Shown here: positions 1 through 64,000 of the stretch, in pieces
How the letters are laid out: every line of letters starts with the position of its first letter
How positions within the stretch are numbered: position 1 is the first letter of the stretch
DNA from: Chrysomallon squamiferum
Lineage: Eukaryota; Animalia; Mollusca
Assembly (NCBI GenBank): GCA_012295275.1
Contig: CM022665.1
Span: 5,704,001-5,768,000 of the forward strand
Length of the DNA: 64,000 bases
Reading direction: 5' to 3'
The notes under the pieces: model-generated
What the model was told of the DNA's origin: nothing
The model's database searches: none
Seen by the model: the letters and a program-made list of their open reading frames with translations, nothing else
Program-made: the position numbers and the translations under genes

Positions 1-8
1 TATCATAA

Positions 9-40
<32 letters not shown>

Positions 41-46
41 CTCTAG

Positions 47-16199
<16,153 letters not shown>

Positions 16200-45644: not shown

Positions 45645-45847
45645 TCTGTCTGTACATCTAACAGTCTATCTGTCTCTCTCTCTTTCTTAACGTCCGTTTT
45701 TCTCTCTGTCTATCTACTTACCTTCCTGTCTGTCTACCGATCTGCCTGCTAGTCTCTGTCTCTCTATCTGTCTGTTTACTTACCTTCTCTGTCTGTTTAT
45801 CTATCTATCTATTTATCTATCCATCTGTCTGTCTATCTGTCTATCTG

Positions 45848-45878
<31 letters not shown>

Positions 45879-45960
45879 GTCTGTCTGTTTACTTACCTTC
45901 TCTGTCTGTTTATCTATCTATCTATTTATCTATCCATCTGTCTGTCTATCTGTCTATCTG

Positions 45961-46007
<47 letters not shown>

Positions 46008-46179
46008 GTCTGTCTGTTTCTTACCTTTCTGTCTGTTTGTCTGTCTGTTTCCATCTGTCTGTCTATCTGTCTATCTTACCTTCTATCTATCTGTTTATCT
46101 ATCTATCTATCTATCTATTTATCTATCCATCTGTCTGTTTATCTATCTATCTACTTTTATCTATCCATCTGTCTGTCTA

Positions 46180-46215
<36 letters not shown>

Positions 46216-46280
46216 TCTATCTGTCTGTCTGTTTACTTACCTTCTCTGTCTGTTTATCTATCTATCTATTTATCTATCCA

Positions 46281-46351
<71 letters not shown>

Positions 46352-46483
46352 GTCTGTCTGTCTGTTTACTTACCTTCTCTGTCTGTTTATCTATCTATTT
46401 ATTTATCTATCCATCTGTCTGTCTATCTATCTATCTATCTGTCTATCTGTCTATCTCTGTCTGTTTATCTTTCTATCAATCCA

Positions 46484-46519
<36 letters not shown>

Positions 46520-46571
46520 TTTATCTATTACCTTCTCTGTCTGTTTATCTATCTATTTATCTATCCATCTG

Positions 46572-46608
<37 letters not shown>

Positions 46609-46631
46609 ATCTATCTGTCTGTCTGTCTGTC

Positions 46632-46663
<32 letters not shown>

Positions 46664-46705
46664 TCTGTCTGTCTGTCTGTCTTGTCTGTCTGTCTGTTTG
46701 TCTGT
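45645..46705. repeat. Compound (TCTA)n/(TCTG)n satellite with a recurring higher-order unit
   Basis: The marker GTTTACTTACCTTCTCTGTCTGTTTATCTATC recurs at ~45775, 45887, 46231 and 46364, plus variants. Confidence 0.95.
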
Positions 46706-47457
46706 TGACTTATTTTCTCCTTTTTTTTCTGATATAATCTATGAGCAATTACAAAAGAAAAGGCAAACCTCCCACCCAAAAAAAAAAGACAACCCCAGAT
46801 CTGTTCATTTACAAGTTATTTTTATATATATCTGAAATTTCGGTGACTAAGAATGCCTAATGAGAATTGTTTTTCTCTCTCTCTCTTTCAAATGGTTTAT
46901 GTTTCTTATTTATGTGACAGAGTTGTTTTCAGTTTCTGGATCACATTTAACAGTAGTCTAGAACGACAGGTAATTTAACTATAAGCAGAACAATCATGCA
47001 ACATTTCATGCATTGGATTTTGTTTTTCTTACTCATTATGTTGTTATGCGTATATTCGGTTTCATTTTGATCACCTTTTTTTTTTTTTTTTTCCTTTGTT
47101 AATTTCGCTTTAAAGAAATAACAAAGGCAGGCTAAAATTTCAGTTGCTGTCGTAAAGTTAATTTTATTGTAATTACTGTTTACAAAAAAAAAAAAAAAAA
47201 ACATTGTCGATAAGTACTATTAAATTTCTTTTAAAAAAAAAAATGAATAAATAAATAAATAATAAACAAATAAATAAAATGTACGTTGACTATATTACTT
47301 AAGGTAACGGTTCGGAACACATGACCTGTTTGCAGGAAATCAAAGGAAATGCTAGAAGAGATGATTGATGATGATAATAAAATAGAAATAATAATTTTAT
47401 ATAAATCAACTTTCACCTGAAAAAGACTTGACGAACATATAATTGTCTGTATTTTTA

Positions 47458-60385: not shown

Positions 60386-60457
60386 GTGATTACAAAATTT
60401 GACTGGAGGCTTCGTTTTATTTCTGTGGAGATTACGAAAAGTGAAGTATGGGTCAAG
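60386..60457 (+). CDS. Start-codon exon of the second gene (5' UTR 60386-60447; coding 60448-60457, M-G-Q-)
   Basis: Long T tract plus ttcag|g acceptor, perfect donor AAG|GTAAGT, Kozak-like agtATGg with an in-frame TGA at 60442; phase 1 matches the next exon. Confidence 0.82.
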
Positions 60458-60842
60458 GTAAGTTAATTGTTTTTGGTTTTTTTTTAAAAAAATGTTTACT
60501 GTTTTAGTGTTACCTGTGGAGAAAAAAACGTCTGTTGATATAGGGATATAAAGTTTACTTCTTTCACTAAAATATTTTACCGTGATATACATTCTTAACA
60601 TTGTTTTAATTAACTCTGATTTACAAAGACATTAACGTTACCTTTTAAAACTCAAATTTCTAAATCTACATTGTATCTCAAAAATAATTAAGTATTGCGT
60701 TAAATTAACATTTAGTTTTCTTACAAACACTAATTAAAATACGATATTTTTTTAATGTTTTGAAATAGAGTGTAATTTATTTATTTTTCTTAATTTAAAT
60801 TCAGGTATTCATATTTCCTTGTTTTATATGTCCGTGTGTGTA

Positions 60843-60901
<59 letters not shown>

Positions 60902-61836
60902 CTATTTATAAGATCGTAAAAGCAGACACAGAGAGAGCGAGAGTTAGGGTAGGAAATTTAAATATATTACTAACAGACTGAGGTTTTTCTTTCTATAATT
61001 TCAATATTTATTTAAATGGAAGTTTTACATTATTACCTTTATCATCATCATTACCATATGATGATAATCATCATTACCAATCATTATCGCGATATATCCT
61101 TGACGAATAACCATTAAGTGTACCATCTCGGTCTAATACAAATTCAAATATCTCATGAACAACGTTTAAAAACTGAATCTTTTACTCACGTTAACAATTT
61201 AATTATCAAACAGCCAGTATTAAAATAATCGAACAACTTCTAATCAGTAATTTATTTCTGTCCAACAATTCATTAATGGCGTCCGTTTTCAGGCCAGACT
61301 TCCCAACTGCTTTGTCTCCTCTCTCTCTCTCTCTCTCTGCCATATATAATAGGATTAATTGCGCTGTTACGTAAGCGTTCATTTACAGTCTGTAATGAAG
61401 TGTAAGTATGAAGCGGCTGTTTTTGGTAGCCCACGAACAGATGTGTGTGTGTGTGTGGGGTGTCTGGAATGCGCGAGGTCACGGCACAGTAGGTGGGCTG
61501 TGATCGCTGATGCTGCTGGCTTGTATTCTGTTTCACGTCGCTGCCTCTTTCAACTGAGCACCCAGCTGTGTAGGATCGTGTAGGACGTAGTAGCTGCTGC
61601 GTACAATGGACGTTGGCGTCGTGCCACGTTGGGTGGATGGATGGAACAGCATTTTTTTTTTTTTTTTATTTTATTTTTTTTTTTTGTTTACATTTGCCTT
61701 GTAAAACGAGGAAATACACCTCAGCTTCATGATGATTTTCGTTTTGATATACATGTACAATCACGCCTGTGAGGAAAGATAATGTAAAAGATGGGTTTGC
61801 CACATCATGCATCATCTTTCTGTGGTTTTCGTTCTC

Positions 61837-61870
<34 letters not shown>

Positions 61871-62329
61871 CTTTTCTTTATAATTCTCTTCATGAATGAA
61901 CCACAAATGTCGGTCACATTTTATAGAAGACTTTTTTGTTTAGTTTTTCGTTGTTTTCACACGTACATCTTTTGTCTTCTATACAATTCAAATTAATTTC
62001 TTAAACAAAGTATTTTTTTTAATAGAATCTGAAACCTGTTTGTTAAAATGAGTCGTTCATCTTATAATGTTTATTTGTTTTTTTGTTTGTTTTTTTGGAT
62101 GCGCAGTTCGACAACCATTAATCAAAAATAAAATAACAAAAACAAAACTCACTTGTATAATGTACAAGTATATACAGTTTAATTTGGCAAGTTTTACTGT
62201 ATAATTTCCTTATAAATAAACCGTGAACACTATAAACTTTTGTGATGTGGCCAAAGATTTCAGACTTGAAATGTATTTGATTTCATTTCAGTTATCTTTG
62301 AATACCCACCCTGTTGTTGTTGTTGTTGT

Positions 62330-62401
<72 letters not shown>

Positions 62402-63963
62402 AATAATTTTAATGTGTAAACAATTTTCATAAATCAGTTTTTAAAATTTCCCTGGCTGTCTTTTTGTTAAATATTCCTTCAGCATCTGCAGACAATAAAC
62501 CGTCACCAAACAGTTAGAATTCCAGACTGACTCCCTTTAATTCATTTTAAACAGAATAACTAACTAGTCATTGATCAAATAAGCGAAACTTTAAAATTTC
62601 AATTTTTTGGTGATATCATCAATACTTTGAAAAATGTTCCACTGGAATCTGGTAATATAAGAATTATGTGTATGACTGTTATTTTTTATTAATATTTAAC
62701 AATATTTGTGTTGTATCATCAGTCCCAGTGGCTAAATGATTATTATATCCTGATATGGCTCCTATGTAAGACCATTTAAGCATCTGTTCTCTCTGATTAA
62801 TCATCTAACACTGATTAAGACATAGAGTCAGAGCAAAACACCTGAATATTTATTGAATGTAAGCCTTTTTCAAAGCCAGAATGATTGATTCTCATACCTT
62901 TACGACACAGGCTCACAATTCATAATCCAAAATCCGAAACGATTACAAAGCCAAATTCATTCCATTATTAACGATCACTTGTATAATTACGTAACGCTCT
63001 GTCTGTTTTAATTTGTATGTGTTTTATGTTACGATGAATGACTTCCTTACAAATGAACAACTATGAAAGCTGCGAAAATACATTTTATTATTCTTCTTCT
63101 ATTCAGCGTTGTCGAGGAAGCGGTTTTCGTACACGCCGGGGACGACGTCACCAAACGGGGAGATTCCCAGTTTGAAGCCACAAACAAACGGATCGGCTAG
63201 CAAAGATTCAGAAGGAAACGTCGTGGTCATTGCACCCTCTGATAAGGATGACACGACGACGCCAACAGAAGAAACGACAACATCGCCAAATACAACTACC
63301 ACTGCCTCCGATACGGCAGACGCTACGGTTGCATCCGATACGGCAGACACTACGGTTGCATCCGATACGGCAGACACTACAGTTGCGTCCGACGCGGCCG
63401 ACACTACGGTTGCGTCCGATGCTGCAGATACGACGACATCGGTAAATGCTTCCTCGTCCATCGTTACAAATGAAGGATCGCCAAGTGAGTTTGGAATATT
63501 TCGAATAAAACTGGAGAAATTAAACTGTTTCCCCAGTGTCTGATATTACACACAGCATATTTTGCAAATACTGGTTCAAACTGTACACAATTAATTAATA
63601 ATGACCTTCTAAATTTGAAACCTACACAAAGGAAACAAATAAAAACACAAAGATCTGAAGAAGGTATTAAAAAAATATATATATAAGCAGATAAATACTT
63701 ATGCATCTTCTGTTTTATCACAGAAATATAGATATTGATGTATTATATTTTTCTTTCTTTCTTTTCGTTATAATAATAATAATAACCTTTTTTTTAAAAA
63801 TTATTATCTGCAGCCAAAAAGGAGAAGAAAAAAGTGAAGAAACTATTCACCTTCAGTTTGAAACGGTCAAGACCCGGATCAGGCAGAAAGAAATCGAAGA
63901 AAGAAAATGGCTCCACAAGTCTGACATCTGCTTCTGACACCAGCAAAGAAGAAAACAGACAAA
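60448..63963 (+). CDS. 3'-partial gene for a predicted N-myristoylated acidic protein with a polybasic/aromatic effector-like segment (MARCKS/Akap200-like architecture): join(60448-60457,63107-63484,63814-63963)
   Basis: Three phase-1 exons join in frame (179 codons): MGQALSRKRFSYTPGTTSPNGE...(ASDTADTTV)x5...EGSPTKKEKKKVKKLFTFSLKRSRPGSGRKKSKKENGS...; the gene continues beyond the window. Confidence 0.72.
60846..60898. repeat. (TG)n microsatellite
   Basis: Perfect run. Confidence 0.95.
62313..62400. repeat. (GTT)n/(TTA)n microsatellite
   Basis: Visible run. Confidence 0.95.
63107..63484 (+). CDS. Second gene, coding exon 2: basic N-terminal patch and acidic T/S/D/A-rich linker
   Basis: ttcttctattcag|cg ... 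a|gtgagt, 378 nt open, GC-rich, with synonymous variation among repeat copies. Confidence 0.85.
63304..63438 (+). repeat. Coding minisatellite, 27 bp x 5 (ASD[T/A]AD[T/A]TV)
   Basis: GCATCCGATACGGCAGACACTACGGTT-like units. Confidence 0.93.
63814..63963 (+). CDS. Second gene, coding exon 3: polybasic segment
   Basis: ctgcag|cc ... a|gtacgt, 150 nt, phase 1-1; the reading frame differs from the ORF-track entry 63701-63937. Confidence 0.8.
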
Positions 63964-64000
63964 GTACGTCCACAACGTCGTTCAGACATTTTAAATATTT

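What the first reader, a model, noticed from the sequence alone, without database searches (positions are those of the whole stretch)
60448..63963. Hidden MARCKS/Akap200-like protein: myristoylation signal, acidic linker and K/R/F/S effector-like domain in an invertebrate
Seen: a 10-nt coding piece (ATG GGT CAA G) splices to two further exons, giving MGQALSRKRFSY..., then an acidic low-complexity linker, then SPT-KKEKKKVKKLFTFSLKRSRPGSGRKKSKK (15 K/R and one acidic residue in 29 aa, with two Phe and several Ser/Thr). Established: M-G-x-x-x-S-(K/R) is the N-myristoyltransferase consensus. Vertebrate MARCKS (KKKKKRFSFKKSFKLSGFSFKKNKK) and Drosophila Akap200 pair a myristate with such a domain, which binds PIP2 and Ca-calmodulin and is switched off by PKC. 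Inference: this is a lophotrochozoan counterpart, homologous or convergent, of a myristoyl-electrostatic switch protein usually described as vertebrate-specific. It is invisible in the ORF track and would likely be annotated as uncharacterised.
Basis: partly seen in the sequence, partly recalled or inferred. Interest (0 to 1): 0.8.

Follow-up and report, generated by a model that had tools for sequence, protein, structure and literature searches.

The report
Snail MARCKS-like membrane scaffold, database-mislabelled
This spliced gene, likely from a snail, encodes the start of a long protein predicted to be floppy; its fat-attachment signal and positively charged patch are conserved in abalones, so it is likely a membrane-clinging signalling scaffold that would work like vertebrate MARCKS, although databases label its relatives mucins or adhesins.

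Summary
RNA contigs from 3 of 3 RNA runs laid (one study) show both predicted junctions and a fourth coding exon beyond the window. An in-frame stop fixes the start codon. The gene is the ortholog of a 903-aa Gigantopelta 'mucin-22-like' protein and of 1,109-1,243-aa Haliotis 'adhesin-like' proteins. These have no Pfam domain of any plausibility, no signal peptide or transmembrane segment, and are predicted disordered and acidic. Between the two gastropod subclasses the myristoylation-type N-terminus (8 of 9 residues) and the basic/Phe block (19 of 29 invariant, including two PKC-type serines) are conserved, while the linker between them is 10% identical. Best reading: a myristate-plus-polybasic membrane scaffold, likely switched by PKC or calmodulin (about 0.55; untested). 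No homology to MARCKS, Akap200 or BASP1 was detected, and no relative outside gastropods. A PKA-anchoring helix is unsupported. Akap200 is already an invertebrate precedent. Verdict: a new member of a known functional kind, not of the MARCKS family.

The parts
60386..60447 (+). 5' untranslated part of the first coding exon; AG acceptor just before 60386, so further non-coding exons are likely upstream; in-frame TGA at 60442-60444
   Evidence: the 70-letter loose ends in runs X2 and X3 match in length the exon stretch from 60386 (only their last 30 letters are shown)
60448..60457 (+). coding exon 1 (10 nt): Met-Gly-Gln plus the first base of codon 4; Gly2 is the predicted myristoyl acceptor
   Evidence: junction from loose ends in 3 of 3 RNA runs; the only ATG-GGN-NNN-N|GTRAG pattern on either strand of the window
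60458..63106 (+). intron (GT..AG, phase 1)
63107..63123 (+). rest of the N-terminal motif (residues 4-9: Ser6 followed by three basic residues)
   Evidence: residues 1-9 identical at 8 of 9 positions between Gigantopelta and 4 of 4 Haliotis species; window and Gigantopelta identical over 1-9
63107..63484 (+). coding exon 2: N-terminal motif, paired Asn-Gly segment, acidic Thr/Ser/Asp/Ala linker
63154..63192 (+). paired Asn-Gly segment at the position where MARCKS has its MH2 region (lead only)
   Evidence: two NG dipeptides here in 6 of 6 proteins examined, but spacing is 11 versus 9 and my motif regex matched only 2 of 6
63303..63435 (+). 27-bp tandem repeat (4.9 copies, 87% matches) that lengthens the linker; variable between runs, not present in Haliotis
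63485..63813 (+). intron (GT..AG, phase 1, 329 nt)
   Evidence: joint in 3 of 3 RNA runs
63816..63902 (+). basic/Phe block (29 aa, 15 K/R, 2 Phe): candidate effector domain with invariant PKC-type sites in F-S-L-K-R and S-G-R
   Evidence: 19 of 29 positions invariant across window, Gigantopelta and 3 Haliotis proteins; site scan
63814..63963 (+). coding exon 3
   Evidence: 88% identical to the Gigantopelta ortholog
63964..64000 (+). donor and start of the next intron; the gene continues beyond the window (3,132 nt of the X3 contig lie downstream, unseen)
   Evidence: the 30-letter loose end, read by hand, encodes the same residues as P0001 153-163

Best explanation
The window holds the first three coding exons of a spliced gene, likely from a gastropod, whose product is inferred from its orthologs to be a roughly 900-residue, predicted disordered and acidic protein that is likely N-myristoylated and would cling to the inner plasma membrane through a conserved basic/Phe patch, likely released by PKC phosphorylation or calcium-calmodulin as in MARCKS. 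Steps: (1) splicing and reading frame: shown. (2) Length, disorder and acidity: shown or predicted for orthologs, inferred for this gene. (3) Gly2 myristoylation after Met removal: inferred from consensus plus conservation (about 0.85). (4) Myristate plus the basic/Phe block (net +13 to +15) and a second Lys block (+14) bind acidic lipids such as PIP2, with the Phe residues inserting: inferred by analogy (about 0.7). (5) Phosphorylation of the invariant serines in F-S-L-K-R and S-G-R, or calmodulin binding, lowers that attraction and releases the lipid or the protein: inferred (about 0.55). (6) The conserved downstream motifs (acidic-Phe block, two R-V-[S/T]-L motifs around a short basic helix, a PPPRK motif) would recruit partners to the membrane: inferred, partners unknown. 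It probably arose independently of MARCKS.
For: Junctions in 3 of 3 RNA runs; start fixed by an upstream in-frame stop. Orthologs: Gigantopelta at E 2.1e-13 from exon 3 alone, Haliotis rubra at E 5.8e-11, four Haliotis species and one unnamed ORF. Identity of P0001 to 4 Haliotis species: residues 1-9 0.89, linker 10-100 0.10, basic/Phe block 0.71, R-V-S-L block 0.88, R-V-T-L block 0.67, tail 400-903 0.18. The basic/Phe, R-V-S-L and R-V-T-L blocks (best 15-residue windows 0.90, 0.93, 0.73) exceed all 30 shuffled realignments (maximum 0.67). 5 of 5 full-length orthologs tested fit the N-terminal myristoylation pattern (pattern recalled; MGXXXS/T consensus in PMC6478813). The basic/Phe block is the most or second most basic 28-mer in 5 of 5 and holds 2-3 of only 7-12 Phe per protein. 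No signal peptide, transmembrane or GPI-like hydrophobic stretch; mean pLDDT 35.8 and 32.4. GAP43, MARCKS and BASP1 share this mechanism with unrelated primary structures (PMC6478813), and fly Akap200 has it too (PMC5831198).
Against: No biochemical or localisation data exist here. The block has 2-3 Phe against 5 in the MARCKS effector domain, and none of MARCKS' four serines lines up with a serine in the best ungapped match (by hand, from the sequence in PMC5403188). Its invariant core R-P-G-S-G-R-K-K has no MARCKS counterpart. A second +14 Lys block with almost no aromatic residues might keep the protein on the membrane after the first block is phosphorylated. The best-conserved block is not the effector-like one but the R-V-S-L block, which the MARCKS analogy does not explain. 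In the 15-residue window test the N-terminus (0.53) and acidic-Phe block (0.53) do not exceed shuffles; the N-terminal case rests on 8 of 9 identity at a fixed end. The polybasic blocks also fit nuclear localisation signals. The window's own downstream exons were not seen.
Confidence: 0.55

Rival explanations
1. Fixed membrane anchor without a switch: myristate plus several basic blocks hold the protein on the membrane all the time, and its real business lies in the downstream conserved motifs (two R-V-[S/T]-L motifs, short basic helix, PPPRK, acidic-Phe block).
For: Second Lys block of +14 in 5 of 5 orthologs; R-V-S-L and R-V-T-L in 7 of 7 aligned proteins; the only segment predicted helical in both models is the one after R-V-S-L.
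Against: Both PKC-type serines and both Phe of the first block are invariant, more than a plain charge patch would need; the second Lys block is far less conserved in sequence (0.32).
Confidence: 0.2
2. It is also an A-kinase anchoring protein like Akap200L or gravin, binding PKA regulatory subunits through the helix at P0001 599-637 (an addition to the best explanation, not an alternative anchor).
For: Overall layout (myristoyl signal, basic domain, long acidic tail). AlphaFold draws a helix at 599-637, at pLDDT mostly under 50; it has the top hydrophobic moment in P0001; 24 of 25 residues are identical between P0001 and P0003 against 56% overall.
Against: The AKAP-register score is reached by 29 of 200 shuffles of P0001, 58 of 200 of P0003 and 165-184 of 200 for Haliotis. 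No match to a recalled RII consensus in P0001, P0003 or P0002, and only scattered matches in the other three. No F/Y-A start as required for type I anchoring (PMC12083921). No helix at the equivalent place in the Haliotis model; a neighbouring block is as conserved (23 of 25); no RII_binding Pfam hit and no AKAP peptide hit in the PDB.
Confidence: 0.15
3. Mainly nuclear or nucleolar: the basic blocks are localisation signals or nucleic-acid-binding patches, and the N-terminal motif is incidental or only governs shuttling.
For: The block reads as a bipartite basic signal; R-P-G-S-G-R-K-K recalls minor-groove-binding linkers (recalled, untested); MARCKS and BASP1 effector domains double as nuclear signals (PMC6478813).
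Against: Gly2 and Ser6 are conserved in all six N-termini seen although residues 10-100 are 10% identical; a conserved pair of Phe inside the basic run.
Confidence: 0.1
4. True distant homolog of vertebrate MARCKS or fly Akap200 rather than a convergent look-alike.
For: Same order of parts (myristoyl site, short segment near residue 20-40, effector domain). The ungapped by-hand match to the MARCKS effector domain is 11 of 25 for the window and 10 of 25 for Haliotis in the same register (sequence). Paired NG dipeptides sit where MH2 would be (the MH2 sequence itself is recalled, not seen).
Against: 8 of the 11 identities are lysines, and about 6 are expected from composition alone (hand estimate). 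No MARCKS, BASP1 or WSK Pfam hit in 7 of 7 proteins at E up to 10. Only 2 hits among 1.84 billion representatives, both gastropod. MH2 is 23 of 25 identical across vertebrates (PMC3636281), whereas this segment is poorly conserved even among gastropods. MARCKS has a sole intron inside MH2 (PMC8101130); here introns fall in codon 4, before the basic block and after it.
Confidence: 0.1
5. Secreted or surface mucin/adhesin, as the RefSeq names of the orthologs suggest.
For: Names given by the sources: mucin-22-like, serine-rich adhesin-like, GPI-anchored adhesin-like; Ser/Thr-rich repeats.
Against: No hydrophobic N-terminus (best 9-mer hydropathy 0.09-0.10), no transmembrane or C-terminal GPI-like stretch in 5 of 5; the names differ between orthologs, as expected of low-complexity matches.
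Confidence: 0.02

Closest known systems
Drosophila Akap200 (L and S forms)
   Same: Invertebrate; N-terminally myristoylated with a polybasic MARCKS-like domain carrying PKC sites near residues 132-137 (PMC5831198 passages); here the block lies at residues 131-159 of the window protein. A long acidic tail in Akap200L is recalled.
   Different: No sequence relation detected. Akap200L has an RII-binding domain; here a PKA-anchoring helix was not supported. This family has a second Lys block and R-V-[S/T]-L motifs.
Vertebrate MARCKS / MARCKSL1
   Same: MGxxxS start, acidic unstructured body, basic run followed by F-x-F and PKC-type serines (PMC6478813, PMC5403188 passages).
   Different: About 900-1,240 aa against about 32-35 kDa; Ala only 5.8-7.8%; 2-3 Phe against 5; no recognisable MH2; different intron positions; no Pfam MARCKS hit.
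BASP1 (CAP-23/NAP-22)
   Same: The N-terminus has the same G2-x-x-L5-S6-basic run as the BASP1 peptide printed in PMC7053243; by hand 6 of 12 positions are identical to the window protein.
   Different: BASP1's Lys4, implicated in calmodulin binding in that paper, is Ala or Val here; the Tyr12 match is not kept in Gigantopelta or Haliotis; BASP1's effector domain is the N-terminus itself; no Pfam BASP1 hit.
AKAP12/gravin (features recalled, no call)
   Same: Myristoylated, long, acidic, with several polybasic domains.
   Different: No WSK or RII-binding Pfam hit; PKA-binding helix unsupported.

Membership tests
MARCKS family | N-terminal myristoylation consensus MGXXXS/T | tested here: met
   Sequence pattern met in the window and 5 of 5 orthologs; the modification itself was not tested
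MARCKS family | MH2 region, near-invariant across vertebrates | tested here: not met
   No Pfam MARCKS hit; the equivalent segment keeps only paired NG dipeptides with different spacing; no direct alignment to MH2 could be run
MARCKS family | 25-residue effector domain with 13 basic residues, 5 Phe, 4 Ser | tested here: inconclusive
   14-16 basic residues, 2-3 Phe, 3-5 Ser/Thr in 28 aa; 11 of 25 by-hand identity, mostly Lys (sequence)
MARCKS family | Sole intron within MH2 | tested here: not met
   At least three introns, in codon 4, before and after the basic block; MARCKS feature from PMC8101130
MARCKS family | Detectable sequence homology | tested here: not met
   phmmer of P0001 1-188 against 1.84 billion representatives: 2 hits, both gastropod; whether MARCKS is among those representatives could not be checked, since the library holds no names
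GMC-type functional class (GAP43/MARCKS/BASP1, Akap200S) | Fatty-acylated N-terminus | not testable with these tools
   Consensus met and conserved; needs labelling or mass spectrometry
GMC-type functional class (GAP43/MARCKS/BASP1, Akap200S) | Intrinsically disordered, acidic chain with a cationic effector domain containing PKC-type serines | tested here: met
   pI 4.7, net charge -71 to -123, pLDDT 35.8 and 32.4, invariant S-L-K and S-G-R sites
GMC-type functional class (GAP43/MARCKS/BASP1, Akap200S) | Binds PIP2, calmodulin and actin, reversed by PKC | not testable with these tools
AKAP (Akap200L, AKAP12) | 14-18 residue amphipathic helix that binds the PKA regulatory D/D domain | tested here: not met
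   Candidate helix not above shuffles (29 of 200), no RII consensus or FA motif, not modelled in Haliotis; sequence tests only, binding untested
BASP1 family | N-terminal effector domain with Lys4, Leu5, Ser6 and Lys7-10; family-level homology | tested here: not met
   Leu5, Ser6 and basic 7-9 present, Lys4 absent; no Pfam hit
Mucin / GPI-anchored adhesin (RefSeq labels) | Signal peptide plus transmembrane or GPI signal | tested here: not met
   Hydropathy scan in 5 of 5 orthologs; a proxy, not SignalP

The most novel reading that the evidence does not exclude
This gastropod family, fly Akap200 and vertebrate MARCKS descend from one ancestral bilaterian myristoyl-electrostatic switch protein whose sequence has diverged beyond routine detection; the paired Asn-Gly segment is the remnant of MH2 and the basic-F-x-F...G...KK block is the effector domain. 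Molluscan neurons and epithelia would then have an overlooked PIP2/calmodulin buffer filed as 'mucin' or 'adhesin'.
Probability: 0.1. Interest if true: 0.7.

Novelty: new member of a known kind. Interest (0 to 1): 0.45.

Why it matters
MARCKS-type proteins couple PKC and calcium signals to PIP2 availability and cortical actin. My ten paper searches listed no molluscan example (the five ortholog accessions searched occur in 0 papers), though the library lacks most subscription journals. If the mechanism holds, gastropods have such a switch under misleading database names, which gives a concrete, cheap-to-test candidate PKC substrate in molluscs and a further case of convergence on this design. 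The surprise is moderate, because Akap200 already shows the design in an invertebrate and such short motifs arise repeatedly. The conserved pair of R-V-[S/T]-L motifs is an unexplained feature that none of the known examples accounts for.

Tried and rejected
No whole genome is held for this window, so its own downstream exons and gene neighbours on that side were not seen. Read evidence covers only 62405-64000, so upstream non-coding exons and expression relative to other genes remain open; contig depth was not used to rank expression. Pfam on exons 2 and 3: 0 families; on P0001: 0; on P0002 and the 7-member alignment only implausible hits (TrpBP in 2 of 7, best E 1.5e-4, just over its cut-off in P0002; LicD). 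PDB sequence searches gave nothing usable. ESM Atlas: best feature score 0.77 for CRACD/CARMIL-type clusters, under the tool's bar; the capping-protein motif (recalled) is only half matched by the T-x-x-R-P-K stretch and Haliotis has Lys for Arg, so it was rejected; no usable hit for P0002 1-190. The word-index search with P0001 1-175 returned only P0001 and missed the Haliotis ortholog later found, so that tool's blanks are weak evidence. Two metagenome scans: 83 and 590 pattern matches, 0 confirmed. Three look-ups of earlier findings were empty. No fold search was run, because both models are low-confidence. The AKAP helix was tested and not supported. The idea that these exons belong to the upstream receptor phosphatase was rejected: its catalytic exons end near 11,960, and the finding has its own start behind an in-frame stop. 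P0011 and P0012, clustered with a Haliotis ortholog, do not resemble the proteins by eye and were dropped. The original Akap200 paper (PMID 10480936) is not held; only its title was seen, in a reference list. No supplements were read.
Full report
1. Observation. The ATG lies at 60448. The three pieces 60448-60457, 63107-63484 and 63814-63963 each end in phase 1, are bounded by GT donors and AG acceptors, and give one open frame of 179 codons. The codon two places upstream of the ATG is an in-frame TGA, the exon's 5' part has no other ATG, and the context is A at -3 and G at +4, so Gly2 is the second residue in this transcript. The basic segment has 15 K/R, 1 E, 2 F and 5 S/T in 29 residues (counted). 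The linker is net negative and built on a 27-bp repeat.

2. Transcript evidence. Five public runs hold part of the stretch: four RNA runs from one study and one run of unrecorded kind. I laid three of the RNA runs and the unrecorded run on 62405-64000. The joint 63484 to 63814 appears in 3 of 3 RNA runs and not in X5, which covers little of that part. Loose ends before 63105 in 3 of 3 RNA runs are the exon-1 sequence, which shows the first junction; their 70-letter length in two runs matches the distance to the acceptor at 60386. Loose ends behind 63965 are identical in 3 of 3 and continue the frame. One contig of 3,734 nt carries these exons at positions 71-602, so 3,132 nt lie downstream and were not seen. 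These are assembled contigs from one study: they show presence, not expression level.

3. What the gene is. Exon 3 alone finds one protein among 282 candidates: Gigantopelta aegis XP_041352136.1, 'mucin-22-like', 903 aa, 88% identical, E 2.1e-13. Its residues 1-9 equal the window's, and its residues 153-163 equal my hand translation of the downstream loose end. A phmmer search of its first 188 residues against 1.84 billion representatives gave 2 hits, itself and Haliotis rubra XP_046560470.1 (E 5.8e-11). A search with residues 330-395 gave 7 of 21 candidates: P0001, an unnamed 758-aa ORF, and five proteins from four Haliotis species. Gigantopelta is in Neomphalina and Haliotis in Vetigastropoda; that this split is several hundred million years old is recalled. 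The window's organism is therefore inferred to be a gastropod close to Gigantopelta. Nothing outside gastropods was found, but sensitivity for short motifs in disordered proteins is low: one search missed the Haliotis ortholog.

4. Anatomy of the full protein, from orthologs. They are 903-1,243 aa, net charge -71 to -123, Ala 5.8-7.8%, with no hydrophobic N-terminus, transmembrane segment or GPI-like tail in 5 of 5 scanned. Pfam shows no plausible domain in 7 of 7, the PDB no relative, and AlphaFold gives mean pLDDT 35.8 and 32.4. The RefSeq names are thus most likely low-complexity artefacts. Identity of P0001 to four Haliotis species (one row per species; P0006 and P0003 left out) is 0.89 for residues 1-9, 0.10 for 10-100, 0.71 for the basic/Phe block, 0.50 for the acidic-Phe block, 0.32 for the second Lys block, 0.88 and 0.67 for the R-V-S-L and R-V-T-L blocks, and 0.18 for the tail. 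In 30 shuffled realignments of the P0001/P0002 pair the best 15-residue window reached at most 0.67 and mean identity was 0.217. Three blocks (0.90, 0.93, 0.73) exceed this; the N-terminal, acidic-Phe and helix windows (0.52-0.53) do not, and the tail is barely alignable. In the basic/Phe block 19 of 29 positions are invariant over the window, Gigantopelta and three Haliotis proteins, including both Phe and the serines of S-L-K and S-G-R.

5. How it most likely works. The N-terminus fits the MGXXXS/T myristoylation consensus (PMC6478813 passages) and is followed by three basic residues. Myristate alone is a weak anchor (established knowledge); MARCKS adds a basic effector domain that binds acidic lipid and PIP2 and is released by PKC or Ca-calmodulin (PMC5964646, PMC4602126, PMC8101130 passages). 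The gastropod protein has a conserved +13 to +15 block with clustered Phe and invariant PKC-type serines at a variable distance from a conserved myristoylation site. I infer the same mechanism, at about 0.55 for the whole chain and about 0.85 for myristoylation alone. The second +14 Lys block and the downstream motifs suggest a scaffold that brings partners to the membrane. None of these functional steps was tested.

6. Rivals. A fixed anchor (0.2) is favoured by the second Lys block and by the fact that the best-conserved block is not the effector-like one. An AKAP role (0.15): a helix at P0001 599-637 is modelled and is 24 of 25 identical in P0003, but its register score is reached by 29 of 200 shuffles, it lacks a recalled RII consensus and the FA motif described for type I AKAPs (PMC12083921 abstract and passages), and the Haliotis model has no helix there. 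A nuclear role (0.1) cannot be excluded, since such blocks double as nuclear signals. A secreted mucin (0.02) is contradicted.

7. Comparison with known families. By hand, the last 25 residues of the window's block match the MARCKS effector domain printed in PMC5403188 at 11 of 25 positions without gaps, and Haliotis at 10 of 25 in the same register. Eight of the 11 are Lys, about 6 are expected from composition (hand estimate), and no serine aligns with a serine. MH2 is 23 of 25 identical across vertebrates (PMC3636281 passages) and surrounds the sole intron; here the corresponding segment keeps only paired NG dipeptides and the introns lie elsewhere. So it is not filed as a MARCKS family member. 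The N-terminus resembles the BASP1 peptide (PMC7053243 passages) in Leu5, Ser6 and the basic run, but lacks Lys4. Fly Akap200 is myristoylated with a polybasic MARCKS-like, calmodulin- and actin-binding, PKC-phosphorylated domain (PMC5831198 passages): it is the nearest precedent in layout and shows that the design is not vertebrate-only, but no sequence link was detected. GAP43, MARCKS and BASP1 are themselves unrelated in primary structure, so the kind is functional, and this protein is best called a probable new, convergent member of it.

8. Literature. Ten searches were run and read as listings. None listed a molluscan MARCKS- or Akap200-like protein, and five ortholog accessions occur in 0 papers. 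PMC6224180 and PMC2198821 mention MARCKS only as a vertebrate protein or general PKC substrate in the passages seen; PMC12203939 has 0 occurrences of AKAP200, gravin or molluscs. No paper was read whole and no supplements were read; most subscription journals are not covered.

9. Verdict. Observation confirmed; interpretation partly supported. A real, spliced, conserved gastropod gene that likely encodes a myristate-plus-polybasic membrane scaffold, mis-named in databases. New member of a known kind; interest 0.45. The boldest open reading, deep homology with MARCKS and Akap200, has probability about 0.1.

Noticed in passing
window 1-11964 (+): 3' part of a receptor protein tyrosine phosphatase of the R3 type (Fn3 repeats, PTP_tm, Y_phosphatase). 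The last coding exon I read (about 11863-11964) carries a Tyr-x-Asn tail motif (label recalled). A separate gene about 48 kb upstream.
   Followed up: partly
orthologs, P0001 338-386 (beyond the window): The best-conserved region has R-V-S-L and R-V-T-L 25-26 residues apart in 7 of 7 proteins, flanking a short basic helix seen in both models. They resemble PP1-docking R-V-[S/T]-F motifs with Leu for Phe, and basophilic kinase sites (recalled).
   Followed up: partly
orthologs, P0001 153-163; first codons of the exon after window 63963: Conserved acidic-Phe block F-x-[DE]-x-F in 5 of 5 orthologs; in Haliotis it fits the AP-2-binding FxDxF pattern (recalled). It could also fold back on the basic block.
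   Followed up: no
Haliotis P0009 versus P0004, at the junction equivalent to window 63963/63964: Isoform pairs differ by four residues exactly at this junction, suggesting a conserved intron position with alternative splice sites.
   Followed up: partly
window 63303-63435: The coding 27-bp tandem repeat shows several variant letters between runs, some changing residues; part may reflect a different copy number or mis-laid copies.
   Followed up: partly
P0003 (unnamed ENA record): A 758-residue protein matching the C-terminal three quarters of P0001 (about 56% identity) and lacking the N-terminus; it may be one very large exon called as an ORF, possibly from a close relative of the window's organism.
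   Followed up: partly
P0001 220-258: Long Glu/Lys-rich helix, the only part modelled above pLDDT 70; not modelled in Haliotis.
   Followed up: no
window 45662-46832: About 1.1 kb of short-unit simple repeat that keeps frames open for 348-360 codons in all three + frames; looks like microsatellite, not a gene.
   Followed up: no
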